Position numbers and translations under genes: made by a program. The notes under the pieces are model-generated. The model was not told where the DNA came from, searched no databases, and saw only the letters and a list, made by a program, of their open reading frames with translations. From Deltaproteobacteria bacterium (GTDB lineage Bacteria; Desulfobacterota; Desulfobulbia; Desulfobulbales; SURF-16), in the NCBI GenBank assembly GCA_029939635.1, contig JAOZSN010000003.1, forward strand, positions 1-40,389: 40,389 nucleotides of DNA. The letters are read 5' to 3'. Positions 5,026 through 34,686 of the stretch are shown here, in pieces (the stretch's first letter is position 1; each line of letters begins with the position of its first letter).

Positions 5026-5209
5026 GAAACAACAGTCGACCCGGGAAAGCTGGTGACGTTAAAAGAGAATAACGCAGGGCAAAGCAGTGGGGTTGGCTTG
5101 ACTCTTTGGTAAATATTTTTAAGTACGAGATGTAGGGAGACCTCGCTGGTTCAGACCCAGGGAGGGCAAGAACCAGGAAGATCTAGGAAGGGGTGGGGTT
5201 GCTGGAGGG

Positions 5210-13231: not shown

Positions 13232-13345
13232 CGAACATCGAACATCGAATTTTAAATAAGGTAATTGTTTTGTTGAATCGTGCCAGCGCAGCGTCTTCCG
13301 CATTGGATGTTCAGTGTTCAATGTTCGATGTTCGATGTTCATCTG
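13219..13345. repeat. Heptamer-armed inverted-repeat element, copy A (ORF-less)
   Basis: The left arm GAATATTGAACATCGAACATCGAACATCGAAT and right arm CATTGGATGTTCAGTGTTCAATGTTCGATGTTCGATGTTCATCTG flank a core with AATAAGGTA...TTGAATC...GCGCAGCG.CTTCC.CATT, homologous to copies B-E. It starts 1 nt after the mutS stop. Confidence 0.85.
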
Positions 13346-19930: not shown

Positions 19931-20120
19931 AACGCTCAGTTCAAGGGAGTAATAGGTTTGGAATCAGAATACTAAGACACTATAGCATAAAGCCTTTAAC
20001 AACTTGCCATTTTTTCACCATTATTCACTGGATATGGCTGTTTTCCAGGCTTGTTTAAATAGCTATTTTTTTTCTTGGGTTTTAGCCATCTCTCAACCTA
20101 TACTGTTTAGAGGTGTGCCT

Positions 20121-22160: not shown

Positions 22161-22178
22161 TCTGTTTTAAGGAGTATT

Positions 22179-24743
22179 ATGAAGAGTAAATGGACCGTTA
22201 TAGCTGCCCTCATGTTGCTCCTGGGCGTCAGTGCCATAGCCTTTGTTCTCTTTTTTGTCAGCAAGAGTCAACAGGGGCTGGAACGTTCCATCAATACCCA
22301 GGTTCGCGACACCAGAATTTTTATAGAAAGCCTTGAGGATCAGCTTGGTAATAGTTATCGCCGGCGAATTAAAGGGCTTCTTGATTACCGTACTGCGAAA
22401 ACTAAGGAGAAGGTTCTTCGATCTTTTGAGGAGCAGGACAGGGCTACTCTGCTGCGTTTATGCACGCCATTTTTACAACTCTTTCAAAACGAAAATTCTG
22501 GTTTTGCTACTTTTAGCTGGGTGCTACCTGATAACGAGGCTTTTCTGTTGGTGCATAACCCCAAGAAATTTGGTTTTGATGTCACGCCAATGCGGCCAGA
22601 TGTTGTAGAAGCTAACAGATCCATGCGGCAAATATCAAGCTATACGGTGTCTCCCGGTGGTCTGCATTTAAGCATTGTCCAGCCAGTGTTGTACGAGCAA
22701 CGACACCTTGGTGTTGTCCAGTTTGGGGTGCGGTATACATTTATTCTTGATGCCTTGCTGGAAAATACGAATCTGCTCGCGGCCATTGTTGTTGATGCTG
22801 ATCGGTTAAGTATTGTCAAAAAGGAGAAAAAACCAGCCATCATGGCGAATGATTATGCCATCCACACCCTGGATGAAGAGTTCTTCCGCGCCAGCAAGGA
22901 TAAGGTTGACTGGGGGCGTGATTGGCAGCGTGTCTCCATAGATGAGCGGCAGTATGTCTTTGTTAAGGCTAGGGCTTTGGCTGATTACCAGGGCCGCCCT
23001 GTGGCCCAGATTTTTGTGGCTCTGGATATCTCTGAGCAATCAGCGGCCTTGAGACGAGATATCCTCCTCATAGTGCTCCTTGCTGTGGCAGTGTTGATCA
23101 GCTCCTTGCTTATCCTCTATTTTGGCTATACCCCTCTCTTTACCCGGCTTATGGATGTGCAGTTGGTTGAGCATCTCAATGAGGAGTTGGAGGAGCGGGT
23201 GGCCCAGCGTACAGCAGCCCTTGAGGCCAGTGAAGATCGCTATCGTAGCATGTTTACCAATACCCATACCATTATGTATGTCATTGACCCTGTGACCGGC
23301 AGGATTATTGACGCCAACCCTGCCGCCAGTGGTTATTACGGTTACAGCCATGCTGAGCTGCTGACAATGAATATTGGCGATATAAATACGCTCTCAAAAG
23401 AAGAAATAGCAATAGAGGTGGAGCGTGCCAAAAATGAAGAGCGCAGCCATTTTAACTTTAGGCATCGCTTGGTTGATGGCACGGTGACGGATGTAGAGGC
23501 GTTCAGCGGTCCCATTATTCGAGATGGCAAGCAGCTGCTCTTTTCCATCATCCATGATGTGACCGAGAAGAAACGCATGGAGGATGAGCTGCTGCAGTCG
23601 CGGAAGATGGAGGCCATGGGTACCCTGGCTGGTGGTATTGCCCATGATTTCAATAATATTCTCACCGCCATTATCGGCTATGCTGAGCTGGTCAGGGATG
23701 AACTTGGCCCAGAGAGCCAGGAGAGGCATGATATTGAGCAGGTTCTTATTGGTGGTAAACGGGCTGCGTCTTTGGTTGCCCAGATTCTCACCTTCAGCCG
23801 TAAGTCTGACCATCGTCACCAGGTGATTAAGCCGCAGCAGGTGGTGGAGGAGGCCATGGAGATGATACGGGCATCATTGCCATCCACCATTGAAATGGTC
23901 ACCGAGATTGATGAGGCGTGTCCACAAATTTTAGCTGACCCCACCAATCTGCATCAGATTATTGTCAATCTCTGCACCAATGGCGCTCATGCCATGGTAG
24001 GTGATAAGGGACGTTTAGTTGTAAAGTTGGGCCAACGGCAGATTGGTGTTGCCGAGCTGCAAGGTATACGGAATGTGGAGCCAGGTCACTTTGTGGTGCT
24101 CTCTGTCAACGATAATGGTGCCGGGATGGATAGCCAGACCAAGGCACGCATCTTTGAGCCATATTTTACCACCAAGGAATTGCACAAGGGCAGTGGGCTT
24201 GGGTTGGCGGTTGTGCATGGGATCGTGAGTGCCTGTGCTGGTTTTATCACGGTGGATAGTGCCTTGGGCAAGGGTACCACTGTGGCTGTTCATCTGCCTG
24301 TGGTTATGGCGGGCGCAGAGGATAGCCCGCAGGACGACGTTGCCCTGGCAGTGCCCCATGGGGTGGAACATCTCTTGGTGGTGGATGATGAGGCTGTTAT
24401 CCTGGAGTTGCATACCATTATTCTGACAAAGTTGGGCTACAGGGTGACCGCCTGTTCCACGCCCCAGCAGGCCTTGGCTGAGATCAAGGCAGACCAGCAT
24501 GATTTTGACCTGTTGCTGACTGACCAGACCATGCCAGAAATGACCGGTATGGAATTGGCCCATGAGGTGATGAAGATCAGGGCGGATTTGCCCATTATTT
24601 TATGTACTGGTTATTCCTTTCACCTCTCAGAGCAAGAGGCCTTGGCCTTGGGTATCAGAAAATTTATCCAGAAACCACTGGAGCATAAAGACATGGCCCT
24701 GGCGGTGCGGGAGGTGCTGGATGGGATGAATAACGAACCGTAG
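22179..24743 (+). CDS. Hybrid sensor histidine kinase HK1 (periplasmic sensor, PAS, HisKA, HATPase, REC)
   Basis: Two TM segments flank a sensor domain of about 260 aa. It also has a PAS domain, the H-box AGGIAHDFNNILTAIIGYAEL, N/G boxes (DNGAGM, GSGLGLAVVHG) and a C-terminal receiver (LLVVDDE...LLLTDQTMPEMTG). Confidence 0.92.
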   Translation: MKSKWTVIAALMLLLGVSAIAFVLFFVSKSQQGLERSINTQVRDTRIFIESLEDQLGNSYRRRIKGLLDYRTAKTKEKVLRSFEEQDRATLLRLCTPFLQLFQNENSGFATFSWVLPDNEAFLLVHNPKKFGFDVTPMRPDVVEANRSMRQISSYTVSPGGLHLSIVQPVLYEQRHLGVVQFGVRYTFILDALLENTNLLAAIVVDADRLSIVKKEKKPAIMANDYAIHTLDEEFFRASKDKVDWGRDWQRVSIDERQYVFVKARALADYQGRPVAQIFVALDISEQSAALRRDILLIVLLAVAVLISSLLILYFGYTPLFTRLMDVQLVEHLNEELEERVAQRTAALEASEDRYRSMFTNTHTIMYVIDPVTGRIIDANPAASGYYGYSHAELLTMNIGDINTLSKEEIAIEVERAKNEERSHFNFRHRLVDGTVTDVEAFSGPIIRDGKQLLFSIIHDVTEKKRMEDELLQSRKMEAMGTLAGGIAHDFNNILTAIIGYAELVRDELGPESQERHDIEQVLIGGKRAASLVAQILTFSRKSDHRHQVIKPQQVVEEAMEMIRASLPSTIEMVTEIDEACPQILADPTNLHQIIVNLCTNGAHAMVGDKGRLVVKLGQRQIGVAELQGIRNVEPGHFVVLSVNDNGAGMDSQTKARIFEPYFTTKELHKGSGLGLAVVHGIVSACAGFITVDSALGKGTTVAVHLPVVMAGAEDSPQDDVALAVPHGVEHLLVVDDEAVILELHTIILTKLGYRVTACSTPQQALAEIKADQHDFDLLLTDQTMPEMTGMELAHEVMKIRADLPIILCTGYSFHLSEQEALALGIRKFIQKPLEHKDMALAVREVLDGMNNEP

Positions 24744-24830
24744 AATATCAAACAAGGAATTTCGAATTTAGAAGGATGATATTCCGGAGTCTCGCAGGCT
24801 CGCTTACTTGCGGTTCGCTGTTTAGCCGCT
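24743..24830. repeat. Degenerate or partial copy (G) of the F-subtype inverted-repeat element
   Basis: GAATATCAAACAAGGAATTTCGAATTTAGAAGGATGAT parallels copy F GAATATCGAGGTCACAAGAAATGTCGAATGATCAAGGGTGGATGAT. The downstream TGCGGTTCGCTGTTTAG parallels F TGCGGTTCGTTTGTTTTA. It begins within the HK1 stop codon. Confidence 0.4.
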
Positions 24831-24871
24831 GGTTGGTGTTGATTTTTTTGAACCTGAAAACAGGAGACAGA

Positions 24872-25708
24872 ATGAAAAAAGATAAAATAGCATATATCTT
24901 GTTGGTGGTTGCGTTGGTGTTGTTGCCATTTTCTTCACTGGCAGCAGATAAAGCCCTGCGTTTTGGGGTCTTTCCCTATAAAAGTCCCAAGGAGATGATG
25001 AAGCTCTTTCTGCCTATTGCCAGGCAGCTGGAGGAGGCCATTGGTCGGCCGGTTCACCTTGTCACAACTCCTAATGCCGTCACCTTTAATCAGCGTGCCA
25101 TTGCCGGTGACTACGATCTTATCTGGGCCTGTAATACCTGCTATCTGCAGATCCATGCCAAGGCAGGCTATGAGGTGGTGGCCCGTGGCTATCCCTCCTT
25201 TCAGGGTGGAGTTATTGTCAGAAAGGATAGCCATCTCAGCGAACTGTCCCAGCTCCAGGGCAAGAAGATTGCGGCCATAGGTAAAGGCTCCTATGCCGGC
25301 TATCAGTTTTTTGCAAACAGTATGGAGGTGCTGGGGTACACCATGCCTGGGGCAGTTAAGGTGAGCTTTTTGCGTAAGCTTGACTCCATTGTTTTCAGCG
25401 TGGTGGGGCGGCAATATGATGCTGGTATCATTCGTCTTGATGCCCTGGCTAGTCACCGTTTTGCCCGGGTACGCGATCAGCTCACCGTCATCCACACCTC
25501 CACAGTCATTCCTCAGTTCCCCTTTGCCGTTAATCCTGGCACCGATCAGGAGTTGATTGCCCAGATCATTGAAGTGTTGACCGGCATCAATAATAGCACC
25601 CCCCAAGGCAAGGATATTCTGCAAAAGTTGAAGATTAAGGGGATAGAGACGTGTATGGATCATGACTATGATGGTTTTCGTACGGTATTTCCCGGTGCCC
25701 ACTGGTAA
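24872..25708 (+). CDS. PhnD-family periplasmic substrate-binding protein (orphan; no ABC permease or ATPase nearby)
   Basis: Signal peptide, then ALRFGVFPYKSPKEMMKLFLPIARQLEEAIGRPVHLV, typical of phosphonate/phosphite-type SBPs. The start is at ATG 24872 (GGAG RBS). Confidence 0.82.
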   Translation: MKKDKIAYILLVVALVLLPFSSLAADKALRFGVFPYKSPKEMMKLFLPIARQLEEAIGRPVHLVTTPNAVTFNQRAIAGDYDLIWACNTCYLQIHAKAGYEVVARGYPSFQGGVIVRKDSHLSELSQLQGKKIAAIGKGSYAGYQFFANSMEVLGYTMPGAVKVSFLRKLDSIVFSVVGRQYDAGIIRLDALASHRFARVRDQLTVIHTSTVIPQFPFAVNPGTDQELIAQIIEVLTGINNSTPQGKDILQKLKIKGIETCMDHDYDGFRTVFPGAHW

Positions 25709-25730
25709 TTAAAAGAGGAGTAGGACGAAT

Positions 25731-28700
25731 ATGATTGCCCTAAAGCTACGTAGTCACTTTATCATCTATTTGACTCTTATTACTCTGGTTCTGTCGCTAA
25801 TTTTGGTCTATCTCTTGACCAATCGTTTAGCCGAGCAGGCCCTGCTGGGTTTAGATGAGTATGGTCAGGCCATGACTATGAACAGCGCTCTTATCTCTGC
25901 TGATTATCTGCTTACCGAGGACTATGCCACTCTGCAACAGTTTGCCGAGGATTATGCCAGTCGACCCAAGGTAAAAAAAGTCAGTATTGCTGATCGCTAT
26001 GGCTCCACCATTGCTTCTTCTGATATGAGTCGATTGGGTCAGCACTTAGCGGGGTCCCGTGCGGAGTGGGGAGAGGGAAGCACCTGCGAGATTAGTAGGG
26101 ATGCTGATGGCAAGGGACAGCTTATCGTCATGGCACCAATCAAGATGGATACCGTGCTTATTGGTTTTACCAAGGTGGTGATTTGCATGGATGCCATGGA
26201 GGCCTCTGTTGCTGCCAGTCGTCGCCAGGGGATATTGGTTGGTTTGGTCGCTTGGTGTTTGAGTGTTCTCTTTGGTCTCTATGTCGCAGGAAGCTTAAGT
26301 AAGCCCATGCAGCAGTTGACCAGGCGGGCTAACAAGATCAAGGCAGGTGATTTTAGCAGTGAGGAAGAGGTGGGCCAGCAGGTTCGTGAGCTGGGGGAAT
26401 TTTCCCAGGCCCTCAACGTCATGGCCAAGACCATCGGTGCCCGGGAAAAATCTCTGCGGGAAATGGTGGCTAATCTTGACATCTTACCCACCCCGGTTTT
26501 CTCCATTGATGCCCAGTTCCTTGTAACCTATATAAATCCAGCCGGGGCGGCGGCAGCCCATCTGACCCCGGCAGAATGTCTGGGCCATAAATGTGCGGAA
26601 CTGTTCAATACCCCCATCTGTAATACGGCCCACTGTCCCATGCGCCAGGCCATGGACAGTGGCCTGGTGAGTAATGGTGAAACCACCATTGGCCGTAATC
26701 AAGAGATTATACCCGTAAAGTTTACCACGGTGGCCTTTCGTGATGGGGATGGAGTGGTAACCGGTGGCCTGGAAAGTTTTATTGATATCTCAGAGTTACA
26801 GCACGCCTTTGCCCAGGCAGAGCTGGAGAATACGCTGCGTAATGCCCAGCTTGAGATCAGCGATAGATTACGGGGGGAGCAGGATGAGGAAACTCTCTGC
26901 ACTACCCTGCTGCGTGAACTTGCCAAGCATATTCCTTTTCAGGCTGGCACAATTTATCTGGTGGGTGAAGGTCATCTCCTTAATTTGCTGGCCAGTTATG
27001 CTGGCCAGCATAACTTTGAGTCTCGCCCTGTCTTTCATTTTGGCGAAGGTATCACCGGCCAGGCAGCCGTGGAAAAAAGACCCATTATGCTCAGCAACAT
27101 CCCGGATGATTATGTGCCGGTGTTATCCGCTTCCGGTAGCAGCATGCCTCGTCATATAATTGCCCTGCCCATTCTCTTTGAAGGCCATGTTTCGGGAGTG
27201 ATAGAGTTGGCGACCTTGAATGAGTTTGATGGCTTTTCCTTGGAATTGTTAGATCGGGTTCTGGAGAATGCCGCCATTGCCATTAATATGGCCCAGGCCA
27301 GGGCACGGGTTGGTCTATTGCTGGGCCAGACCCAGCAACAGGCTGAGGAGTTACAGTCTCAGCAGGAGGAGTTGCAGGCCAGCAATGAGGAGTTGCGTGA
27401 GCAGACTCAAGCCCTGCAAAAAACAGAAACCCAGCTCCAGCAGCAGGCGGAAGAACTCCAATCACAACAGGAGGAACTCCAGGTCACCAACGAGGAGTTG
27501 GCTGAACGGACGCAGAATCTGGAGCTCCAGCAAAACGAGGTGAGTCGAAAAAATGAGGCCTTGGCCACCCAACGTAATGAACTGCTCCATAAGACCGAGG
27601 CGCTTGAGACCAGCAATCGTTATAAGGCTGAGTTTTTGGCAAACATGTCCCATGAATTACGCACGCCGCTCAACTCTATTCTCATCCTCTCCCAACTCTT
27701 TGCCACCAATAAGGAGGGCAACCTGAATGGTAAGCAGTTGGAGTTTGCCCGCACCATCAATAGTTCTGGTACAGAACTCCTTACCCTTATTAACGAGGTG
27801 CTTGATCTGTCTAAGGTGGAGGCCGGTCATGTCCAACTGGACATTGTATCTTTAGATTTGCGTGATTTTTTGGACGCCATGGAACAGTCATTTGCTCCGG
27901 TTGCGACAGAGCGTAATATTACCCTGGTTACAGAGTTGCTTGATGTGCCGGCAAGCATAACTACCGATGCCCAGAAGTTGTTACAGGTTGTTAAAAATCT
28001 GCTGTCTAATGCCTTGAAATTTACTGAAAAGGGGGAGGTGCGGCTGCGTATCAGTCGGCCACCGGCAGATATGGATTGTGGAGTGCTGGCTGGTCGAGAC
28101 GGTGTGGCCATATCAGTTATGGATAGCGGTATTGGTATTGCCCCTGAAAAGCAAGATCTCATCTTTGAGGCCTTCCAGCAGGTGGATGGCTCCATAAGCC
28201 GCCGCTATGGCGGCACAGGTCTTGGTCTCTCCATTGCCAAGGAGTTTGCTGGCCTGTTAGGTGGAGAGATCCGCCTGACCAGTGAGGTTGGTCACGGTTC
28301 ATGCTTTACCGTCCTGGTGCCAGATATTCTTGCTGAACAATCTGTCCAGGAGGGTGAGACCACAAAGGTGGTCAGCGTTGCCCCTGTTGTTCTCCCTGCG
28401 GAGAAAAAGGAGTCGGTTCTAAAGGCAGGCCAACAGGCGGAAGAGGACAGGGCAGAGGAGGGGCAGGATGTTGCTGATGATCGGAAGAATTTGGCAGATG
28501 ATGACAAGATTCTGTTGATAATCGAGGATGATTCGGCCTTTAGTGAGGTTCTTGCTGATTTGGCCCATGAACGTGGTTTTAAGTGTGTCCTGGCCAGTGA
28601 TGGTGAGAGTGGTCTCCATTATGCTGATTATTATCAGCCTGGTGCCATTATTCTTGATATTGGTCTGCCTGGCATGGATGGCTGGCAGGTCATGGATAGT

Positions 28701-29675
28701 CTGAAGAAAAATTCCAAGACCAGTCATATCCCGGTTCATTTTATGTCTGCTGCTGATAAATCCCAACAGGCCAGGGAAATGGGTGCTATTGGTTATCTGG
28801 TGAAACCGGTAAGTGTGGAAAAGGTGCAGGAAACCTTTGCCATGCTGGAGGATGAGATCAGCCGCACTGTGAAAAAATTACTCATCGTTGAAGATCACCG
28901 TGATCAACGACGCAGTATGGTGGAGTTGATCAGTGACCCCCATATCGATATAAGCGGGGTGGCCACAGGTACTGAGGCCTGGAAACTGCTCAAAAAGGCC
29001 TCCTTTGACTGTATGATCCTTGATCTTGGTCTACAAGACATGGAGGGCTTCAAGTTGCTGGAGATGATCCGGGGCGATGAGGCACTCTGTAACCTACCGG
29101 TTATTATCTATACAGGCCGGGAGTTAACTCCGGATGAGGATGAGAAACTACGCCATTATTCATCGTCAATTATCATCAAGGGGGTCCAGTCACCAGAGAG
29201 GTTGCTGGCTGAGACCACCCTGTTCCTCCATCAGGTTGAGGCTGACCTGCCCGAGGATAAACAGCGCATGCTGGCCATGGCCCATAAGCGGGAGGATATC
29301 TTTGCGGCCAAAAAGGTATTGGTGGTGGATGATGATATGCGCAACGTCTTTGCCCTCTCCAGCGTATTGGAAGAAAAGGGCATGGAGGTGTTGGCCGCAG
29401 AAAACGGCAAAAAGGCCCTGGATATACTGGACAAAATTCAAGGTGTCAGCGTGGTGTTGATGGATATTATGATGCCGGAGATGGATGGTTTTGAGGCCAT
29501 GGCCCGGATTCGTTCCCAAGCCAAGTTTGCTAAACTTCCCATCATCGCCCTGACTGCCAAGGCCATGAAGGGTGATCGCCATAAATGCATTGAGGCTGGA
29601 GCCAATGATTATTTGGCCAAGCCGGTGGATGTGGAGAGACTTGTTTCTATGTTGCGGGTGTGGCTGTGTCAGTGA
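25731..29675 (+). CDS. Large hybrid sensor kinase HK2 (TM, sensor, TM, HAMP, Cys4-PAS, GAF, EELQ coiled coil, HisKA, HATPase, REC x3)
   Basis: 1314 aa. It contains HAMP (KPMQQLTRRANKIKAGDF), a PAS domain with C283/C288/C297/C302, and a GAF domain. It also has a duplicated 28-aa QQAEELQSQQEELQ(A/V)(S/T)NEEL coil and the H-box FLANMSHELRTPLN (His641). The G boxes are DSGIGI and GGTGLGLSI. The three receivers carry the motifs LLIIEDD, LLIVEDH and VLVVDDD. Confidence 0.93.
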   Translation: MIALKLRSHFIIYLTLITLVLSLILVYLLTNRLAEQALLGLDEYGQAMTMNSALISADYLLTEDYATLQQFAEDYASRPKVKKVSIADRYGSTIASSDMSRLGQHLAGSRAEWGEGSTCEISRDADGKGQLIVMAPIKMDTVLIGFTKVVICMDAMEASVAASRRQGILVGLVAWCLSVLFGLYVAGSLSKPMQQLTRRANKIKAGDFSSEEEVGQQVRELGEFSQALNVMAKTIGAREKSLREMVANLDILPTPVFSIDAQFLVTYINPAGAAAAHLTPAECLGHKCAELFNTPICNTAHCPMRQAMDSGLVSNGETTIGRNQEIIPVKFTTVAFRDGDGVVTGGLESFIDISELQHAFAQAELENTLRNAQLEISDRLRGEQDEETLCTTLLRELAKHIPFQAGTIYLVGEGHLLNLLASYAGQHNFESRPVFHFGEGITGQAAVEKRPIMLSNIPDDYVPVLSASGSSMPRHIIALPILFEGHVSGVIELATLNEFDGFSLELLDRVLENAAIAINMAQARARVGLLLGQTQQQAEELQSQQEELQASNEELREQTQALQKTETQLQQQAEELQSQQEELQVTNEELAERTQNLELQQNEVSRKNEALATQRNELLHKTEALETSNRYKAEFLANMSHELRTPLNSILILSQLFATNKEGNLNGKQLEFARTINSSGTELLTLINEVLDLSKVEAGHVQLDIVSLDLRDFLDAMEQSFAPVATERNITLVTELLDVPASITTDAQKLLQVVKNLLSNALKFTEKGEVRLRISRPPADMDCGVLAGRDGVAISVMDSGIGIAPEKQDLIFEAFQQVDGSISRRYGGTGLGLSIAKEFAGLLGGEIRLTSEVGHGSCFTVLVPDILAEQSVQEGETTKVVSVAPVVLPAEKKESVLKAGQQAEEDRAEEGQDVADDRKNLADDDKILLIIEDDSAFSEVLADLAHERGFKCVLASDGESGLHYADYYQPGAIILDIGLPGMDGWQVMDSLKKNSKTSHIPVHFMSAADKSQQAREMGAIGYLVKPVSVEKVQETFAMLEDEISRTVKKLLIVEDHRDQRRSMVELISDPHIDISGVATGTEAWKLLKKASFDCMILDLGLQDMEGFKLLEMIRGDEALCNLPVIIYTGRELTPDEDEKLRHYSSSIIIKGVQSPERLLAETTLFLHQVEADLPEDKQRMLAMAHKREDIFAAKKVLVVDDDMRNVFALSSVLEEKGMEVLAAENGKKALDILDKIQGVSVVLMDIMMPEMDGFEAMARIRSQAKFAKLPIIALTAKAMKGDRHKCIEAGANDYLAKPVDVERLVSMLRVWLCQ

Positions 29676-29684
29676 TTAAAAAAA

Positions 29685-30194
29685 TTGAACATCGAACGTC
29701 CAACATCGAACATCGAATGATGAATGAAAAGACAAAAGATGAAGACACAAACGTATGATTTGGAAGAGCGGTTGCTTGAGTATTCTGTACGAATTATAAA
29801 AATTGTTGAGCAGTTGCCAAACTCAAGAACGGGTAATCATGTTGCTGGGCAGTTATTACGCTCAGGAACATCGCCCTATCCAAATCATGGTGAGGCTCAG
29901 GCCGCTGAGTCACCAAATGATTTTATTCATAAGTTGCGTATCTCTCTAAAGGAGCTACGGGAATCGCAAAGATGGTTAAAGTTAAGTCAAAGGATCCCAC
30001 TCATAACAAAACCTGAGCTATTGGATAATATTTTGCTGGAGACAGAAGAGTTAATTAAGATTTTTGTAACCAGTATTAAGACGGCAGAGAAGAATAAGAG
30101 AAGGTGAATATGCTATCTCCTTGTCAATTAGTTAGAGCGCAGCTATTTCCTCATTCGACGTTGAACGTTCGATGTTCGATGTTCGACGTTCATC
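29685..30194. mobile_element. Heptamer-armed inverted-repeat cassette, copy E, carrying a four-helix-bundle protein gene
   Basis: The left arm is TTGAACATCGAACGTCCAACATCGAACATCGAATGATGAATG (29685-29726). The right arm is CATTCGACGTTGAACGTTCGATGTTCGATGTTCGACGTTCATC (30152-30194). They enclose ORF 29724-30107 and a 44-nt tail homologous to the cores of the short copies. Confidence 0.7.
29724..30107 (+). CDS. Four-helix-bundle protein (23S rRNA intervening-sequence protein family; Avd-like)
   Basis: 127 aa. YDLEERLLEYSVRIIKIVEQLP...GNHVAGQLLRSGTSPYPNHGEAQAAES..DFIHKLRISLKELRESQRWL matches the TIGR02436/PF05635-type pattern. An alternative ATG lies at 29739. Confidence 0.82.
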   Translation: MKRQKMKTQTYDLEERLLEYSVRIIKIVEQLPNSRTGNHVAGQLLRSGTSPYPNHGEAQAAESPNDFIHKLRISLKELRESQRWLKLSQRIPLITKPELLDNILLETEELIKIFVTSIKTAEKNKRR

Positions 30195-30206
30195 TTCTTC
30201 AAGGAT

Positions 30207-31043
30207 GTGCCAGTGACAACTGATCATGAAACCTCAAAAATCGAAGTCACCCTCCTTCTAGAGGCGATCTATCTGAAGTACGGCTATGATTTCCGCAATT
30301 ATTCCAGTGCCCATATCAGGCGCCGGATCAGGCGGCGTCAGGAGTTGACAGGTATGGAGAATATCTCGGCCATGCAGCATCGTCTCCTCCATGATGAAGA
30401 GTTTTTTCAGACCGTACTATATGACCTGTCGATTAATGTTACGGAGATGTTTCGTGATCCTGCCTTCTATCTGGCTGTACGTGAGAAAGTTGTGCCGATT
30501 TTGGCCACCCATTCTTTTATAAAGGTCTGGCATGCAGGTTGTTCAACCGGAGAGGAACTTTACTCCATGGCTATCCTGCTCAAGGAGGCAGGGTTGTATG
30601 ATCGTTTGCAGCTTTATGGCACTGATTTTAACGAATTAGTTTTACAGAAGGCCAGGGAAGGGATTGTGCCGGCCAAGGCGATAAAGGATTATACCGATAA
30701 TTATCAACGGGGCGGTGGCATCAGTTCATTTTCAGACTACTACACCGCAAAATATGAGCGTGCCTTGCTGGCTCCAGAGCTAAAAAAAAAGATACTCTTT
30801 GCCAATCATAACCTGGTCACCGATCAGGTCTTTGGGGAGATGCAGATGATTGTCTGTCGCAACGTGCTTATTTATTTTAGTCGAGAATTGCAAAAAAAGG
30901 TTATCACCCTTTTTTACGACAGCCTCTGTCGCGGCGGCATCCTCTGTCTTGGCAGCAGAGAGAGTCTGCAATTTTCAGGGTTGGCAGATCGTTTCAGCCA
31001 GCTGGTGGATGGTGAGCAGATTTATCAGAAGATGTATGAGTGA
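30207..31043 (+). CDS. cheR: CheR-type protein-glutamate O-methyltransferase
   Basis: Has the CheR N-terminal helical domain (YGYDFRNY, TEMFRDP) and the SAM-binding fold (VWHAGCSTGEELYSMAILL, IVCRNVLIYF). The start is GTG 30207 or 30213 (AAGGA RBS). Confidence 0.9.
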   Translation: MPVTTDHETSKIEVTLLLEAIYLKYGYDFRNYSSAHIRRRIRRRQELTGMENISAMQHRLLHDEEFFQTVLYDLSINVTEMFRDPAFYLAVREKVVPILATHSFIKVWHAGCSTGEELYSMAILLKEAGLYDRLQLYGTDFNELVLQKAREGIVPAKAIKDYTDNYQRGGGISSFSDYYTAKYERALLAPELKKKILFANHNLVTDQVFGEMQMIVCRNVLIYFSRELQKKVITLFYDSLCRGGILCLGSRESLQFSGLADRFSQLVDGEQIYQKMYE

Positions 31044-31050
31044 AAAGGAA

Positions 31051-31184
31051 TGAATGCCGAACATCGAACATTGAACATTGAACAGCGAATTTTGAATGTG
31101 GAAGCCGCTGCGCTCGGATTGATTCAAGGGATTCTGAAATAGATAAATACCTCATTGGGCGTTGGATGTTGGATGTTCGACGTT
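31051..31184. repeat. Heptamer-armed inverted-repeat element, copy B (ORF-less, inverted relative to C/D)
   Basis: The sequence reads GAACATCGAACATTGAACATTGAACAGCGAATTTTGAATGTGGAAGCCGCTGCGCTCGG...CCTCATTGGGCGTTGGATGTTGGATGTTCGACGTT. Its reverse complement aligns with copies C, D and A. Confidence 0.85.
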
Positions 31185-31212
31185 AAGTCTGTAAAATAGT
31201 GCAGGTGAGGCC

Positions 31213-31842
31213 ATGGCACAGCGAGAACAAAAAAAAATAGCCTACGACGCCATCGTCATCGGTGTCTCCTTCGGCGGTCTCCAGGCCCTGTTGTCTCTCT
31301 TGCCGAGCCTGGGTGCTGATTTTCCGGTGCCGATCATGGTGGTGCAGCATCATGCCGCCCAGGCCGATGATTTCTTGGCTCGTCATTTAGATAGCTTGTG
31401 TCAGCTTCAGGTTAAGATGGCTGAGGAAAAGGAGATGGCGCAGGCAGGAGTTGTCTATCTGGCCCCGGCTAATTATCATTTACTGGTAGAGGATAATCAG
31501 AGCCTCTCCCTTTCGGTTGATGAGAAGGTGAATTTTGCCAGACCAGCCATTGATGTCCTCTTTGAGAGTGCTGCAGATGCCTATGGGGCACGGTTGGTTG
31601 GTGTTGTCCTCACCGGTGCCAATAATGATGGTAGTAAGGGCTTGCGATGCATCAAGGAGTATGGTGGTTTGGCTGTGGTGCAGGACCCGCAAACTGCGGA
31701 GGCACCAAGTATGCCAGAGGCTGCCTTGGCAGCGTGCGAGGTGGATCATGTTGTGCCCCTTGCTGAAATAGGAGCGTTTTTGAATACGCTATTAATGGGA
31801 AAAATAAAAGATGAACGTCGAACATCGAACATTCAACATTGA
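31213..31842 (+). CDS. cheB: CheB-type protein-glutamate methylesterase, catalytic domain only (no receiver)
   Basis: 209 aa with GVSFGG (Ser), VVQH (His) and ARPAIDVLF (Asp) triad contexts, plus LTGANNDG. The last 10 codons and the stop lie inside element C. Confidence 0.88.
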   Translation: MAQREQKKIAYDAIVIGVSFGGLQALLSLLPSLGADFPVPIMVVQHHAAQADDFLARHLDSLCQLQVKMAEEKEMAQAGVVYLAPANYHLLVEDNQSLSLSVDEKVNFARPAIDVLFESAADAYGARLVGVVLTGANNDGSKGLRCIKEYGGLAVVQDPQTAEAPSMPEAALAACEVDHVVPLAEIGAFLNTLLMGKIKDERRTSNIQH

Positions 31843-31932
31843 ACATCTAATAAGGTACTATCAAGTTGAATTAGTGAGAGTGAAGCGATTCCTACATTCA
31901 AAATTCGATGTTCAATGTTCGACGTTCATCTG
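31810..31932. repeat. Heptamer-armed inverted-repeat element, copy C (ORF-less)
   Basis: The termini AGATGAACGTCGAACAT and ATGTTCGACGTTCATCT are perfect 17-nt inverted repeats. The core is AATAAGGTACTATCAAGTTGAATTAGTGAGAGTGAAGCGATTCCTACATTCAAAATTCG. Confidence 0.9.
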
Positions 31933-31952
31933 TGAAATTAAAAAATAAGACT

Positions 31953-32606
31953 ATGTCCCCCAAAACTACCATCCTCGCCGTTGATGATCGGCCAGAGAAT
32001 ATCTTAAGTTTAGAAGCCATGCTGGATGACCCTGATCTTAATATCATCTCCGCATCATCTGGTAATGAGGGCTTGGCTTTACTGCTTCAACATGATTGCG
32101 CCCTGGTGCTGCTTGATGTGCAGATGCCAGGGATGAATGGTTTTGAGGTGGCGGAACTCATGCGGGCCAGCAAGAAAACCCGAGAGATACCCATCATCTT
32201 TATTACTGCCATCAGCAAGGAGCGGGAGCATATTTTCAAGGGGTATGAATCGGGTGCGGTGGATTATATCTGTAAGCCGATCCAAGATCCCCTGGTGTTA
32301 CGGAGCAAGGTGCGGGTTTTCTGCCAACTCCATGAACAAAAACGTTTGATTGAGCAAAATTTGGAGGAACTGGCTGAAAAGAATAACCAGTTGGAAAAAC
32401 ACCTTGCTGAAATTCAAACCCTGCGAGGTATCTTGCCCATTTGTGCTGTCTGTAAGAAAATACGGGACGACAAGGGCTATTGGAACCAGTTGGAATCGTA
32501 TATGCATGAACACTCCGAGGTCAGGTTCAGTCATGGCTATTGTCCAGAATGTGCCGAGGCGGCCATGGCAGAGATTGACAAAATGAAAGTGGACAAAGAT
32601 GAGTGA
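31953..32606 (+). CDS. Response regulator: REC, coiled coil, and a Cys/His-rich C-terminal domain
   Basis: Receiver motifs ILAVDDRPEN, LVLLDVQMPGMNG and the conserved Lys context CKP. The C-terminus is PICAVCKKIRDDKGYWNQLESYMHEHSEVRFSHGYCPECAEAA. The start is at ATG 31953; the 31908 start is an artefact of the repeat arm. Confidence 0.9.
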   Translation: MSPKTTILAVDDRPENILSLEAMLDDPDLNIISASSGNEGLALLLQHDCALVLLDVQMPGMNGFEVAELMRASKKTREIPIIFITAISKEREHIFKGYESGAVDYICKPIQDPLVLRSKVRVFCQLHEQKRLIEQNLEELAEKNNQLEKHLAEIQTLRGILPICAVCKKIRDDKGYWNQLESYMHEHSEVRFSHGYCPECAEAAMAEIDKMKVDKDE

Positions 32607-32613
32607 TTAAAAA

Positions 32614-32718
32614 GATGAACATCGAACGTAGAACATTGAACATTCAACGTCGAATAAGGTACTATCTAATTTGAGTGAGAGTGAAGCGAATTCTACATTC
32701 AAAATTCGACGTTCATCT
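32614..32718. repeat. Heptamer-armed inverted-repeat element, copy D (ORF-less, short right arm)
   Basis: The sequence is GATGAACATCGAACGTAGAACATTGAACATTCAACGTCGAATAAGGTACTATCTAATTTGAGTGAGAGTGAAGCGAATTCTACATTCAAAATTCGACGTTCATCTG, nearly collinear with copy C. Confidence 0.9.
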
Positions 32719-32739
32719 GTTAAAATTTAAGATAAGGTC

Positions 32740-34686
32740 ATGTCCCCACAAACCACTATTCTCATCGTTGATGATCGCCCTGAAAATCTCTTGAGCCTGC
32801 GGGCCATGTTGGAAGATCTTGATATCAACATCATCTCTGCCTCCTCTGGCAATGAGGCCCTTGCCCTGTTGTTAGAGCATGAGTGTGCCTTAGTGCTGCT
32901 CGATGTGCAGATGCCGGAGATGAATGGTTTTGAGGTGGCTGAATTGATGCAGGCCAATACAAAGACCAGCACAATCCCCATCATCTTTATCACTGCCATC
33001 AGCAAGGATCAGGAACATATTTTTAAGGGCTATGCGGCCGGGGCGGTGGACTATATTTTTAAGCCCCTTGATCAGGCCCAGATCCTGGTCAGTAAGGTAA
33101 AGGTCTTTTGTGAGCTGTATGAGGCTAGGGAAAAGATCAAGCAGGCAGTTGATACCCAGCGCTTAAGTGAGCAACAATGGCAGCTGACCTTTGAGGCCAT
33201 CAGTGACCTGGTGACTATCCATGACACCAAATTTCACCTGCTGCGGGTGAATCGGGCCACGGCTGAGTTTTTTGGTAAGGAGCCGGAAGAGCTGGTGGGG
33301 CGCAAGTGTTATGATGTCTTTTGTGGCCAGAACAGCAAGTGCACATCGTGCCCAATTATCTCCTTGGAGCAGGATTTGCGTCCGCATACAGCAGAAATAA
33401 ATCATTCCGTGCTCAAAAAGACCTTTCAGGTCTCTGTCTCTCCCATCTTTGATGAGGCTGAGCAATTTATTGGTGTTGTCCATATTGCCAAGGATATCAG
33501 TGCCAGAAAAAAATTGGAGACCCAGTTGCACCAGGCCCAGAAAATGGAGGCCATTGGCACCTTGGCTGGTGGCATTGCCCATGATTTCAATAATATACTG
33601 ACCCCTATAGTTGGTTATGCAGCTCTGCTGCGGCGAGATGCCAAACCTGGTAGCCCCTTGCATAAGGGCTTGGGTATAATTGAGCAGGCAGCAGGGCGTG
33701 CTACTGAATTGGTAAAACAGATTCTCTCTTTTAGTCGTCAGCACGAGCATGAGATGATCAGTATTGCCATCCAGCCTATTATCAAAGAGGCTCTGAAGCT
33801 GTTGCGCTCCAGCTTGCCCGCCACCATAGAGATCCGTCAAGATATCGACATGGAGTGTGGAGCAATTATGGCTGACTCCACTCAGATTCACCAATTGTTG
33901 ATGAATCTCTGCACTAATAGCGGTCATGCCATGGCTGAGCATGGTGGGGTGTTAGAGATCTCTCTCCGCTGCCAAGAATTGTTGGCCAAAGATTGTGTCC
34001 AGTGGCCAGACCTTTCTTCTGGTCAGTATCTCCTGCTTGAGGTGAGTGATAGCGGATGTGGTATGGCTGCTGATCTGTTGGATCGGATTTTTGAACCCTA
34101 TTTCACCACCAAGGAAAAAGATCAGGGTACGGGTATGGGTTTGGCGGTGGTGCATAGTATTGTCACAGCCCAACAAGGGCAGATTAGTGTTACCAGTGAG
34201 ATTGGTCAGGGTACAACATTTCATATCCTCTTGCCTGTAGTAGGAAAACCTGGGGGGCGGCACAAGAAGGAGAAGAGTGATACGGTGCTCCCTTCAGGTA
34301 ACGAACATGTATTGTTGGTGGATGATGAAGAGTATGTGGTTATGGTCTATGGAGAGATCCTCCTCTCTCTAGGCTATCAGGTAAGCACAGAGACCAGTAG
34401 CCAGAAGGCGCTGGACTTGTTTCTGGCTGGTAAGGATGATTTTGATATAGTCATCACCGATCTCACCATGCCAGAGATGACCGGTATTGAACTGGCACAC
34501 GAAATCATAGCTATTCGGCCTGAAATTCCCATAATACTATGTACAGGGATTAGTGAGTTGATTGACGCTGAGCAGGCCCAGGATATTGGTCTTCGTGCCT
34601 ATCTCCATAAGCCGGTAAGCATCCAAGATATGGGCCAGGTAGTACGGCGTGTTTTGGATGGGGAAAAACTACCTGAAATCCTTTGA
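32740..34686 (+). CDS. Hybrid sensor kinase HK3 (REC, Cys4-PAS, HisKA, HATPase, REC)
   Basis: The N-terminal receiver appears roughly 70-75% identical by eye to that of the preceding response regulator. It has a PAS domain with CYDVFCGQNSKCTSC and the H-box AGGIAHDFNNILTPIVGYAALL. It also has DSGCGM and GTGMGLAVVH boxes and a C-terminal receiver paralogous to that of HK1. Confidence 0.93.
   Translation: MSPQTTILIVDDRPENLLSLRAMLEDLDINIISASSGNEALALLLEHECALVLLDVQMPEMNGFEVAELMQANTKTSTIPIIFITAISKDQEHIFKGYAAGAVDYIFKPLDQAQILVSKVKVFCELYEAREKIKQAVDTQRLSEQQWQLTFEAISDLVTIHDTKFHLLRVNRATAEFFGKEPEELVGRKCYDVFCGQNSKCTSCPIISLEQDLRPHTAEINHSVLKKTFQVSVSPIFDEAEQFIGVVHIAKDISARKKLETQLHQAQKMEAIGTLAGGIAHDFNNILTPIVGYAALLRRDAKPGSPLHKGLGIIEQAAGRATELVKQILSFSRQHEHEMISIAIQPIIKEALKLLRSSLPATIEIRQDIDMECGAIMADSTQIHQLLMNLCTNSGHAMAEHGGVLEISLRCQELLAKDCVQWPDLSSGQYLLLEVSDSGCGMAADLLDRIFEPYFTTKEKDQGTGMGLAVVHSIVTAQQGQISVTSEIGQGTTFHILLPVVGKPGGRHKKEKSDTVLPSGNEHVLLVDDEEYVVMVYGEILLSLGYQVSTETSSQKALDLFLAGKDDFDIVITDLTMPEMTGIELAHEIIAIRPEIPIILCTGISELIDAEQAQDIGLRAYLHKPVSIQDMGQVVRRVLDGEKLPEIL

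What the first reader, a model, noticed from the sequence alone, without database searches (positions are those of the whole stretch)
25731..34686. CheR plus receiver-less CheB embedded among three hybrid kinases, with no CheA, CheW, MCP, Hpt or DNA-binding output
Seen in sequence: the same-strand run is HK2 (HAMP, PAS, GAF, coil, kinase, three receivers), CheR, CheB, REC-Zn-tail regulator, then HK3 (REC, PAS, kinase, REC). Upstream lie the TonB-dependent receptor, HK1 and the binding protein. CheB has only the catalytic domain (Ser/His/Asp contexts present). It therefore cannot be activated by CheA-type phosphotransfer. The two MCP genes in the window (3437-4951 and 39272 to beyond 40389) are distant, on the opposite strand, and not linked to CheA or CheW here. 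Established knowledge: CheR and CheB normally methylate and demethylate glutamates of MCP coiled coils for adaptation. Inference: this methylation pair probably acts on a kinase in the locus rather than on an MCP, giving an adaptive or memory layer on a phosphorelay. The locus has seven receiver domains and three transmitters. It has no Hpt or classical output domain, so the output is probably the Cys-rich regulator or a partner encoded elsewhere. Similar gene orders are annotated in other genomes, but I know of no mechanistic description.
Basis: partly seen in the sequence, partly recalled or inferred. Interest (0 to 1): 0.7.

Follow-up and report, generated by a model that had tools for sequence, protein, structure and literature searches.

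The report
Kinase-methylating CheR/CheB module, known type
A chemotaxis-type methylation and demethylation enzyme pair sits beside a large sensor kinase whose coiled-coil linker carries conserved glutamate pairs resembling chemoreceptor methylation sites, so the pair most likely tunes that kinase, but this arrangement is widespread and its Bacillus cereus and Pseudomonas versions are already described.

Summary
Pfam confirms HK2 (HAMP-PAS-GAF-coil-kinase-3 receivers), CheR, a catalytic-only CheB, a receiver protein with a Cys/His tail, and HK3. The window has no CheA, CheW or Hpt.

Its linker between GAF and the kinase (aa 528-635) carries two blocks of heptad-spaced Glu-Glu pairs (QQEELQASNEEL, QQEELQVTNEEL). 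These pairs are nearly invariant in 37 homologues from at least 10 phyla, and indels are multiples of seven. Among 47 genomic loci with this linker and enough flanking DNA, 36 have CheR nearby and 33 have both CheR and CheB, on the same strand. All 51 linked CheBs lack a receiver. HK1, HK3 and the regulator lack the motif.

This is not new in kind. Bacillus cereus RsbM, a CheR homologue, methylates the signalling helix of the hybrid kinase RsbK. Pseudomonas putida cfcABCDE has the same gene order.

No role has been reported for a receiver-less CheB in this setting. The function of the Cys/His tail is also unknown.

Verdict: new member of a known kind, of moderate-to-low interest.

The parts
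20004..22160 (+). TonB-dependent receptor, first gene of the same-strand run
   Evidence: Pfam Plug + TonB_dep_Rec_b-barrel. A 19-nt gap separates it from HK1.
22179..24743 (+). HK1: dCache_3-PAS-HisKA-HATPase-REC hybrid kinase
   Evidence: Pfam. It has no Glu-Glu heptad motif. An HK1-like kinase with a PhnD-like binding protein recurs near CheR-CheB in L093.
24776..25708 (+). PhnD-family periplasmic binding protein, a probable ligand-binding partner of HK2 (or HK1)
   Evidence: Pfam Phosphonate-bd, E 1.2e-47. The same family lies directly upstream of the orthologous kinase in L002.
25731..29675 (+). HK2: membrane sensor-HAMP-PAS-GAF-signalling helix-HisKA-HATPase-REC-REC-REC, the proposed methyl-accepting kinase
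   Evidence: Pfam. It is 36-45% identical over its full length to 36 homologues from many phyla. GAF, HisKA, HATPase and REC occur in 37/37. H641 and the acceptor Asps D976, D1098 and D1245 are conserved.
27312..27635 (+). Signalling helix of HK2 (aa 528-635) linking GAF to the kinase
   Evidence: It has a continuous heptad pattern. Indels among homologues are 7 residues long. An 'ERT' motif lies at aa 592-594. Used alone as a query, it finds 786 protein clusters.
27342..27404 (+). Glu-Glu heptad block 1 (aa 538-558: AEELQSQ QEELQAS NEELREQ), candidate methylation sites E539/540, E546/547 and E553/554
   Evidence: E546, E547, E553 and E554 are conserved in 34-35 of 37 homologues. EELQAS fits the classical EExxA(S/T) half-site. 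The window's own MCP has EESSASLEE.
27429..27449 (+). Window-specific extra heptad (aa 567-573, TQLQQQA); the second-block pair E574/E575 follows it immediately
   Evidence: It is present in 1 of 37 aligned homologues and is exactly 7 residues long.
27450..27512 (+). Glu-Glu heptad block 2 (aa 574-594: EELQSQ QEELQVT NEELAERT), candidate sites E574/575, E581/582 and E588/589
   Evidence: E581, E582 and E589 are conserved in 34-36 of 37, and N587 and L590 in 37 of 37.
29724..30107 (+). Four-helix-bundle protein gene (23S rRNA intervening-sequence protein family), a lineage-specific insertion between HK2 and cheR
   Evidence: PF05635 E 2.8e-13 and TIGR02436 E 9.7e-24. It is absent from all 80 related loci. 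It is flanked by a 52-nt inverted repeat, 29676-29727 / 30151-30202.
30207..31043 (+). CheR-type protein-glutamate O-methyltransferase
   Evidence: CheR_N + CheR. The SAM motif AGCSTGEE is present. The best solved relative is B. subtilis CheR 5FTW, E 3.4e-31. It is 47-64% identical to the CheRs next to S-helix kinases in other phyla.
31213..31842 (+). Receiver-less CheB methylesterase/deamidase
   Evidence: CheB_methylest only, E 7.3e-59. Triad Ser19/His46/Asp139. The 120 best homologues are 185-240 aa with only this domain.
31953..32606 (+). Response regulator: REC, coiled linker and a conserved Cys/His tail (the longer ORF starts at 31908)
   Evidence: REC E 1.4e-22. The tail has no Pfam or NCBIfam match. 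Its REC is 73% identical to the N-terminal REC of HK3.
32421..32552 (+). Cys/His tail module (aa 172-215 of the long ORF): LRGILPICAVCKKIRDDKGYWNQLESYMHEHSEVRFSHGYCPEC
   Evidence: C179, C182, H202, H209, C212 and C215 are at least 90% conserved in 71 sequences. The module also follows PAS, HAMP and MASE3 domains or stands alone.
32740..34686 (+). HK3: REC-PAS-HisKA-HATPase-REC kinase, a recurrent downstream partner
   Evidence: Pfam. A similar REC-(PAS)-kinase(-REC) gene follows CheB in L001, L009, L093, L095, L071, L089 and Swit_5356. It has no Glu-Glu heptads.

Best explanation
The locus encodes a phosphorelay whose central hybrid kinase, HK2, is itself the methyl-accepting protein.

Proposed signal path (inferred): signals reach HK2 through its periplasmic domain, probably with the adjacent PhnD-like binding protein, and through its PAS and GAF domains. 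They pass along a dimeric signalling helix (aa 528-635) to the kinase core, where H641 is the phosphorylated histidine.

Proposed methylation step (inferred by homology with RsbK/RsbM): CheR uses SAM to methyl-esterify glutamates of the heptad-spaced Glu-Glu pairs on that helix. The candidates are E546/547, E553/554, E581/582 and E588/589, plus E539/540 and E574/575. The receiver-less CheB removes the methyl groups and may deamidate neighbouring Gln residues.

Proposed effect (inferred): neutralising these charges changes helix packing and shifts the kinase between output states. In RsbK, methylation holds the kinase off together with its receiver domain.

Proposed feedback (inferred): CheB has no receiver, so feedback cannot be phospho-controlled. 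It would have to come from the signalling state of the helix determining how good a substrate it is.

Proposed output (inferred): phosphoryl groups go to HK2's own three receivers, to the paralogous receivers of the Cys/His-tail regulator and of HK3, and possibly to an Hpt protein encoded elsewhere.

Shown here: the domain content, the motif and its conservation, and the gene linkage. Everything about the actual chemistry and signalling is inferred.
For: (1) Motif. The helix after GAF carries AEELQSQ-QEELQAS-NEELREQ and AEELQSQ-QEELQVT-NEELAER. In 37 full-length homologues from many phyla, E546, E547, E553, E554, E581, E582 and E589 are kept in 34-36 of 37, and N552, N587, L548, L555, L583 and L590 in 36-37 of 37. 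Length changes are exactly 7 residues.

(2) Linkage from the motif. A scan of 185,579 species genomes with the motif gave at least 540 confirmed sites. Among the best 80, CheR is within the held DNA in 55 and CheB in 51. Among the 47 loci with at least 6 kb upstream and 8 kb downstream, 36 have CheR and 33 have both. They lie on the same strand, usually immediately after the kinase gene.

(3) Linkage from CheB. Of 9 homologous receiver-less CheBs looked up, 7 lie beside CheR and a GAF hybrid kinase. None has CheA or CheW within 8-10 kb.

(4) All 51 linked CheBs lack a receiver.

(5) Specificity within the locus. Three consecutive heptad-spaced [EQ]E pairs occur only in HK2 among all open frames of the window. 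HK1, HK3 and the regulator have none.

(6) Resemblance to real methylation sites. HK2 has EELQASNEE; the window's own MCP has EESSASLEE.

(7) Both enzymes look active.

(8) Precedent. The CheR-type RsbM methylates the S-helix of the CHASE3-HAMP-GAF hybrid kinase RsbK and thereby represses it (PMC4574943).

(9) The CheR/CheB pair of the P. putida cfc cluster has no role in chemotaxis, as cited in PMC4951495.

(10) CHASE3-type kinases carrying the same helix motif sit beside annotated CheR and CheB genes on alphaproteobacterial plasmids.
Against: There is no biochemical evidence for this protein. The motif meets only part of the ten-residue MCP consensus as I recall it ([ASTG][ASTG]xx[EQ][EQ]xx[ASTG][ASTG]); the flanking small residues are often Gln, Arg or Glu. 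About a quarter of the well-flanked loci with the motif (11 of 47) have no CheR nearby. One CheR-CheB pair (L095) sits beside only an HK3-like kinase, and one CheB (L094) is an orphan. So the linkage is strong but not obligatory, and action in trans is possible. I could not obtain the RsbK or CfcA sequences, so homology of the helix to the experimentally methylated one rests on shared domain order, not on an alignment. In B. cereus no esterase takes part, so the CheB half has no precedent. P. putida mutants in the cfc genes other than cfcA kept the crinkly colony phenotype (authors' unpublished remark in PMC4951495). The pair is therefore not essential for that kinase's output under those conditions.
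Confidence: 0.68

Rival explanations
1. The CheR/CheB pair serves ordinary chemoreceptors encoded elsewhere, including the two MCPs in the window, and is only coincidentally placed among kinase genes.
For: Pfam and NCBIfam place both proteins in the chemotaxis enzyme families. The window has two MCPs with typical methylation motifs. MCP genes lie 6-8 kb from the pair in L003, L009 and L094.
Against: None of the 9 sampled neighbourhoods has CheA or CheW. An MCP signalling domain occurs in only 1 of 80 loci that carry the helix motif, whereas CheR occurs in 55. The same-strand order kinase-CheR-CheB is kept across at least 10 phyla. The homologous P. putida pair was reported to have no chemotaxis role (PMC4951495).
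Confidence: 0.12
2. The pair modifies a different protein of the locus (HK3, HK1 or the Cys/His-tail regulator) rather than HK2.
For: An HK3-like REC-(PAS)-kinase gene recurs after CheB in many loci. In L095 it is the only kinase beside CheR-CheB.
Against: HK1, HK3, the regulator and four HK3-like homologues have no heptad-spaced Glu pairs. The gene after CheB varies: REC-GGDEF in 8 of 33, REC-kinase in about 9, others or none in the rest. The GAF-helix kinase is the constant partner.
Confidence: 0.06
3. HK2 is one of several substrates. The pair also acts in trans on paralogous proteins carrying the same helix elsewhere in the genome, including proteins without a kinase. The helix would then be a portable methyl-accepting module.
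For: Two genomes each carry two motif-bearing kinases, of which only one is next to CheR/CheB (L017 vs L019; L045 vs L044). A Chloroflexi locus has a 463-aa GAF protein that ends in the helix motif with no kinase, directly after CheB (L008 10582-11973).
Against: Nothing here tests trans action. The unlinked paralogues may simply be unmethylated.
Confidence: 0.1
4. The pair is an inactive remnant of a degraded Che cluster.
For: Repeat hairpins and a foreign gene have been inserted around cheR and cheB in this genome.
Against: Both reading frames are intact and the catalytic and SAM-binding residues are kept. The proteins are 47-64% (CheR) and 39-59% (CheB) identical to counterparts in distant phyla in the same gene order.
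Confidence: 0.02

Closest known systems
Bacillus cereus RsbK-RsbM(-RsbY) module (Chen et al. 2012 Environ Microbiol 14:2788; Chen et al. 2015, PMC4574943)
   Same: Both have a hybrid kinase with an extracellular sensor, HAMP, GAF, a signalling helix, a kinase core and a C-terminal receiver. Both have an adjacent CheR-type methyltransferase. In B. cereus, methylation of the helix by that enzyme was shown and represses the kinase.
   Different: RsbK has a CHASE3 sensor and one receiver; HK2 has a Cache-like sensor, an added PAS domain and three receivers. RsbM has no partner esterase, whereas a receiver-less CheB is present here. The B. cereus output is the PP2C regulator RsbY and sigma-B, neither of which is in the window. 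I could not align the sequences.
Pseudomonas putida cfcABCDE cluster with CfcR (PMC4951495, PMC6849547; Tagua et al. 2022) and the P. alkylphenolica BmsA cluster (Lee et al. 2016; PMC8175716)
   Same: The gene order is the same: hybrid GAF kinase, CheR, CheB, receiver protein, second kinase. There is no CheA, CheW or MCP in the cluster. In close relatives of the window the gene after CheB is a REC-GGDEF protein, matching the CfcA-to-CfcR diguanylate cyclase output.
   Different: CfcA and BmsA have a CHASE3 sensor. Their known output, CfcR, is unlinked and makes c-di-GMP. The window has a Cys/His-tail regulator and no GGDEF protein. No role for CfcB or CfcC has been published in the papers I could read.
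Canonical chemosensory adaptation (CheR and CheB acting on MCP methylation helices)
   Same: The enzyme families and catalytic residues are the same. The candidate sites are Glu-Glu pairs spaced by heptads on a coiled coil, with an EExxAS half-site.
   Different: The proposed substrate is a histidine kinase linker rather than an MCP. There is no CheA or CheW, CheB has no receiver domain, and no C-terminal pentapeptide tether is evident.
Signalling helix (S-helix) of Anantharaman, Balaji and Aravind 2006 (recalled from memory)
   Same: It is a parallel coiled-coil linker between a sensor domain and an output domain, has an ERT signature (aa 592-594) and preserves heptad register.
   Different: It is much longer (about 100 aa) and contains an internally duplicated Glu-rich block that is not part of the generic S-helix definition.

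Membership tests
RsbK/RsbM-type methylatable hybrid kinase module | Hybrid kinase with sensor-HAMP-GAF-signalling helix-HisKA-HATPase-REC | tested here: met
   Pfam on HK2. The helix lies at aa 528-635.
RsbK/RsbM-type methylatable hybrid kinase module | CheR-type methyltransferase gene adjacent to the kinase gene | tested here: met
   cheR is at 30207-31043, separated from HK2 only by an inserted 127-aa gene.
RsbK/RsbM-type methylatable hybrid kinase module | The methyltransferase methylates glutamate(s) of the signalling helix | not testable with these tools
   This needs an in vitro assay and mass spectrometry. Only candidate sites were identified.
RsbK/RsbM-type methylatable hybrid kinase module | Output through the REC-PP2C regulator RsbY and the sigma-B partner-switching genes | tested here: not met
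   No PP2C/SpoIIE, anti-sigma or sigma-B-type genes appear in the Pfam scans of the window's larger ORFs (28 of the 71 ORFs of at least 100 aa; the rest overlap these).
RsbK/RsbM-type methylatable hybrid kinase module | Sequence-level orthology of kinase and helix to RsbK | not tested
   The RsbK sequence could not be obtained. Paenibacillus members of the motif family exist (L071, L089), and the RsbK authors list a Paenibacillus homologue.
Pseudomonas cfcABCDE / bms cluster | Gene order hybrid kinase - CheR - CheB - receiver protein - kinase, without CheA, CheW or MCP | tested here: met
   compared with the published description in PMC4951495 and PMC8175716.
Pseudomonas cfcABCDE / bms cluster | CHASE3 sensor domain on the first kinase | tested here: not met
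   HK2 has only a weak sCache_3_2 match and no CHASE3. CHASE3 versions do belong to the same motif family (4 of 37; L084, L085, Swit_5353).
Pseudomonas cfcABCDE / bms cluster | GAF domain followed by kinase core and receivers | tested here: met
Pseudomonas cfcABCDE / bms cluster | Signals to a REC-GGDEF(-EAL) diguanylate cyclase (CfcR) | tested here: not met
   The scanned ORFs of the window include no GGDEF protein. In relatives, REC-GGDEF follows CheB.
Canonical Che chemosensory cluster | CheA kinase and CheW coupling protein encoded with CheR/CheB | tested here: not met
   Neither was found in the window or within 8-10 kb in 9 related neighbourhoods. The window is the whole contig, so more distant genes are unknown.
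Canonical Che chemosensory cluster | CheB with an N-terminal receiver domain | tested here: not met
   The protein is 209 aa with the catalytic domain only. The same holds for 51 of 51 linked homologues.
Canonical Che chemosensory cluster | MCP substrate encoded in the cluster | tested here: not met
   The nearest MCPs lie about 20 kb upstream of HK2 and 4.6 kb downstream of HK3, on the opposite strand with housekeeping genes between.
MCP-type methylation site | Glu-Glu (or Gln-Glu) pairs at heptad spacing with small residues at +4/+5 (EExxA-S/T) | tested here: inconclusive
   EELQAS at 546-551 fits the half-site and the 7-residue spacing holds. The full ten-residue consensus (recalled from memory) is not met, and positions +4/+5 vary in the family.
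Signalling helix (S-helix) | Coiled-coil linker between sensor and output domains, register-preserving, with an ERT signature | tested here: met
   ERT is at 592-594. Indels are 7 residues long. The family definition is recalled from memory.

The most novel reading that the evidence does not exclude
The duplicated QQEELxxxNEEL helix would be a portable, ancient methyl-accepting module that gives sensory adaptation to two-component kinases, and even to kinase-less GAF proteins, in many phyla without any chemotaxis machinery. It would be run by a constitutively active receiver-less CheB, so that feedback relies purely on substrate conformation. The Cys/His tail would be an undescribed zinc-binding output domain of this pathway.
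Probability: 0.25. Interest if true: 0.6.

Novelty: new member of a known kind. Interest (0 to 1): 0.35.

Why it matters
Reversible glutamate methylation is the textbook memory device of chemotaxis. The comparative data here indicate that the same enzymes are wired to a large family of hybrid kinases across at least ten phyla. In relatives the output is often c-di-GMP synthesis.

Only the methyltransferase half has been tested, in one species (B. cereus). The specific, nearly invariant Glu pairs identified here give a direct experimental handle. They allow a test of whether these kinases adapt as chemoreceptors do, and of what a CheB without a receiver contributes.

For this window itself the result is mainly a correct annotation. 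The cheR and cheB genes should not be read as chemotaxis genes.

Tried and rejected
(1) I tried to obtain RsbK or CfcA sequences for a direct alignment. tblastn of the GAF-helix segment against plasmids matched only the GAF part, because the low-complexity filter masks the coil. It led to an unrelated multi-HAMP protein in Rhizobium. A homologue search with a CHASE3-type family member returned no Pseudomonas or Bacillus entry in the top 120. The key papers (Chen 2012, de Been 2011, Garcia-Fontana 2013, Kaczmarczyk 2015) are not held.

(2) I predicted the structure of the Cys/His-tail regulator. The tail had pLDDT 62-95, but the receiver domain was poorly modelled (mean pLDDT 64.5). The PDB fold search gave no match with E at or below 0.001.

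It gave 0 hits, but this is a weak test. The Pfam-annotated neighbourhoods are the stronger evidence.

(4) The two best non-self hits of the coil-only search are eukaryotic FAZ1 coiled-coil proteins, which I take as chance compositional similarity.

(5) Three apparently long CheB ORFs (about 370 aa) in high-GC loci looked like receiver-containing CheBs. They are over-extended frames with Arg/Gly/Pro-rich N-termini, not receiver domains.

(6) The Rfam scan of the window found nothing. The promoter and terminator scans were at background level.

(7) I considered the four-helix-bundle gene between HK2 and cheR as a possible Hpt substitute and rejected the idea. It belongs to the 23S rRNA intervening-sequence protein family, is absent from all related loci, and sits inside a repeat-flanked insertion.

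Full report
**1. What is in the sequence**

The window carries nine same-strand genes from 20004 to 34686:
- a TonB-dependent receptor
- HK1 (dCache_3-PAS-HisKA-HATPase-REC)
- a PhnD-family binding protein
- HK2 (1314 aa; weak Cache-like periplasmic region, HAMP, PAS, GAF, about 100 aa of coil, HisKA, HATPase, three REC)
- CheR (CheR_N + CheR)
- a 209-aa CheB with only the methylesterase domain
- a REC protein with a Cys/His-rich tail
- HK3 (REC-PAS-HisKA-HATPase-REC)

Gaps between the first four genes are 19-33 nt. The count of seven receivers and three transmitters is right.

CheB aligns with the solved CheB catalytic domains (3SFT, E 3.7e-33; also 1CHD and 1A2O). It keeps the triad as Ser19, His46 and Asp139. 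CheR aligns with B. subtilis CheR (5FTW, E 3.4e-31) and keeps the AGCSTGEE SAM-binding motif.

The rest of the window holds housekeeping and unrelated genes: amtB/glnB, mutS, an amidase, divIVA, metG, holB and others. It also holds two MCPs on the other strand, one of which runs off the end. It has no CheA, CheW or Hpt domain. The window is the entire contig, so nothing beyond it can be checked for this organism. The closest named relatives are Desulfocapsa and other Desulfobulbales.

**2. The candidate substrate**

The segment of HK2 between GAF and the H-box reads ...LLLGQTQQQAEELQSQQEELQASNEELREQTQALQKTETQLQQQAEELQSQQEELQVTNEELAERTQNL.... It contains two copies of a block in which Leu recurs every seven residues and is preceded by a Glu-Glu pair.

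The kinases found next to receiver-less CheBs in other organisms have the same segment. The consensus is TQxQAEELQxQQEELRxxNEELEEQTxAL...LQxQQEELRVxNEELEERTxxL. The only length differences are insertions or deletions of exactly seven residues. HK2 has one extra heptad (aa 567-573) seen in no other of 37 aligned homologues.

In that 37-sequence alignment, the homologues come from Desulfobacterota, Bacteroidota, Firmicutes, Leptospira, Nitrospirota, Acidobacteriota, Chloroflexota, Alpha- and Gammaproteobacteria and others. They are 36-45% identical to HK2 over the full length. The conservation is as follows:
- E546, E547, E553, E554, E581, E582 and E589 are kept in 34-36 of 37.
- N552, N587, L548, L555, L583 and L590 are kept in 36-37 of 37.

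The half-site EELQAS matches the classical MCP motif EExxA(S/T). The window's own MCP has EESSASLEE where HK2 has EELQASNEE. The full ten-residue MCP consensus, as I recall it, is not met.

Within the window, three consecutive heptad-spaced [EQ]E pairs occur only in HK2. HK1, HK3, the regulator and four HK3-like homologues have none.

**3. Is the linkage to CheR/CheB real?**

The 80 best loci come from at least ten phyla.
- tblastn with the window's CheR and CheB finds CheR in 55 and CheB in 51 of the 80.
- Among the 47 loci that have at least 6 kb upstream and 8 kb downstream, 36 have CheR and 33 have both. They are on the same strand, mostly starting 2.0-2.2 or about 3.7 kb after the helix (just past the kinase gene), and sometimes just upstream.
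- An MCP signalling domain is found in 1 of 80.

*Starting from CheB.* The 120 best homologues are all 185-240 aa with only the esterase domain. Nine of them were looked up in their contigs, with these results:
- Seven lie in the order [sensor-GAF-kinase-REC(n)] - CheR - CheB, or CheR-CheB-kinase.
- One has CheR-CheB followed only by an HK3-like kinase.
- One is an orphan.
- None has CheA or CheW within 8-10 kb.

All 51 CheBs next to motif-bearing kinases lack a receiver. Their median length is 194 aa, and three longer ORFs are over-extended frames.

*Domain content of the family.* All 37 scanned motif-bearing proteins have GAF, HisKA, HATPase and REC, and 28 have HAMP. The N-terminal sensor varies: dCache_1 in 11, CHASE3 in 4, 4HB_MCP in 4, NIT in 2, or PAS.

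The gene after CheB also varies. A receiver is present in 20 of 33. It is fused to GGDEF in 8, to a kinase in about 9, and to HD, PilZ or EAL domains once each.

A search with the coil alone found 786 protein clusters at E up to 0.001. Almost all are full-length coil matches at the same position of 1200-1500-aa proteins.

So the constant core is GAF-helix-kinase plus CheR plus receiver-less CheB. Sensors and outputs are interchangeable.

**4. What is already known**

In Bacillus cereus the CheR-type methyltransferase RsbM methylates the hybrid kinase RsbK (CHASE3-HAMP-GAF-S-helix-kinase-REC) on its signalling helix. Methylation, together with the kinase's own receiver domain, keeps the sigma-B pathway off. 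The authors counted 127 RsbK-like kinases in 10 phyla (PMC4574943; also PMC12848376 and PMC10950880).

In Pseudomonas putida the CHASE3/GAF hybrid kinase CfcA is the first gene of cfcABCDE. There, cfcB and cfcC encode a CheR/CheB pair reported to have no role in chemotaxis, and CfcD carries a receiver. CfcA activates the diguanylate cyclase CfcR (PMC4951495; bioRxiv 10.1101/2024.11.25.625174).

The P. alkylphenolica BmsA and P. brassicacearum clusters are described in the same way (PMC8175716).

CHASE3 versions of the motif-bearing kinase lie next to genes annotated as CheR and CheB on plasmids of Rhizorhabdus wittichii RW1 (Swit_5353-5356) and Agrobacterium pusense.

I found no paper that assigns a function to the CheB, or to CfcB/CfcC. 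I could not obtain RsbK or CfcA sequences. Placement of the window in their family therefore rests on domain order, gene order and CHASE3-type intermediates, not on a direct alignment.

**5. How it most likely works**

- *Shown:* the gene content, intact catalytic residues, the conserved Glu-pair helix, and the conserved linkage.
- *Inferred by homology with RsbK/RsbM:* CheR methylates Glu residues of the HK2 helix.
- *Inferred from enzyme family:* CheB reverses this and may deamidate adjacent Gln.
- *Inferred from the missing receiver:* the receiver domain inhibits canonical CheB, and that inhibition is relieved by phosphorylation (established knowledge). This CheB is therefore expected to be constitutively active. 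Any feedback must arise from the signalling state of the helix controlling its quality as a substrate.
- *Inferred:* charge neutralisation changes coiled-coil packing and shifts the kinase's output.

All three receivers of HK2 keep the acceptor Asp (D976, D1098, D1245), in 33-37 of 37 homologues. They could act as intramolecular sinks, as the inhibitory element described for RsbK, or as steps of a relay that needs an Hpt protein encoded elsewhere.

The regulator's receiver and the N-terminal receiver of HK3 are 73% identical. The receivers encoded after CheB in other loci align with them. These are therefore the likely external phospho-acceptors.

I put 0.68 on HK2 being a substrate of the pair. 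I put about 0.12 on the classical MCP role and small values on the other rivals.

**6. The output question**

The regulator's tail (LPICAVCKKIRDDKGYWNQLESYMHEHSEVRFSHGYCPEC) is a conserved module of about 45 residues. It has a CxxC...H...H...CxxC pattern, at least 90% conserved in 71 sequences. It also occurs after PAS, HAMP and MASE3 domains or on its own, mostly in Desulfobacterota metagenomes.

It has no Pfam or NCBIfam model. A structure model was confident only for the tail and found no structural relative. Its function remains unknown. Only 2 of the 80 loci have it, so it is a lineage-specific output choice.

**7. Verdict**

The central inference is supported by comparative evidence and sharpened to a specific helix of HK2. 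However, the arrangement is a new member of a known and very widespread kind (the RsbK/RsbM and cfc/bms type).

Three points remain open and testable: whether the invariant Glu pairs are the methylation sites, what the receiver-less CheB does, and what the Cys/His tail does.

Interest 0.35.

Noticed in passing
window 13220-13339; 29676-30202; 31060-31184; 31814-31926; 32618-32633: A family of palindromic elements is built from tandem 7-nt units (GAACATC, 3-5 copies) paired with their reverse complement 70-460 nt downstream. There are 22 matches to AACATCGAACATCGAA with up to 2 mismatches, against 0.03 expected. Two of the short copies fold into long hairpins (z = -7.9 and -6.2); the third, in the cheR-cheB gap, is not significant (z = -1.9). 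The elements fill the cheR-cheB gap and overlap the cheB stop and the regulator's first codons. They are absent from all 92 loci fetched up to that point and have no Rfam match.
   Followed up: partly
window 29724-30107 (flanks 29676-29727 and 30151-30202): A four-helix-bundle gene of the 23S rRNA intervening-sequence protein family (PF05635/TIGR02436) sits in the loop of one of these heptamer-repeat inverted repeats (52-nt arms, 75% complementary), between HK2 and cheR. In relatives the kinase and cheR genes abut, so this is a recent insertion. The layout resembles the stem-and-ORF arrangement of rRNA intervening sequences.
   Followed up: partly
window 32421-32552: A conserved Cys/His module (LPICxxCKKIRDDxGxW..E.Y...H....F.H..C..C) lies at the C-terminus of the response regulator. 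It has no Pfam or NCBIfam model and no structural match. It is also found after PAS, HAMP and MASE3 domains and as a stand-alone small protein.
   Followed up: partly
L008 10582-11973 (Chloroflexota MAG): A 463-aa GAF protein ends in the same Glu-pair helix motif but has no kinase domain. It is encoded directly after CheR-CheB and before a full GAF-helix kinase.
   Followed up: no
window 31953-32360 versus 32740-33150: The regulator's receiver and the N-terminal receiver of HK3 are 73% identical, which suggests a recent local duplication and a shared phosphodonor.
   Followed up: yes
window 3437-5032 (minus strand): This MCP has a weak CHASE3 match (E about 1e-3) plus HAMP. CHASE3 is the sensor type found on the CfcA/RsbK-type kinases. 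It lies about 20 kb from the locus.
   Followed up: no
window 20004-25708; L002 2794-3639; L093 1-1739: A PhnD-family binding protein lies directly upstream of the orthologous kinase in the closest relative (L002). It is paired with an HK1-like PAS kinase near CheR-CheB in L093. The binding protein, and perhaps HK1, may therefore be a recurring sensory accessory in Desulfobulbales. The TonB-dependent receptor was seen only in the window.
   Followed up: partly
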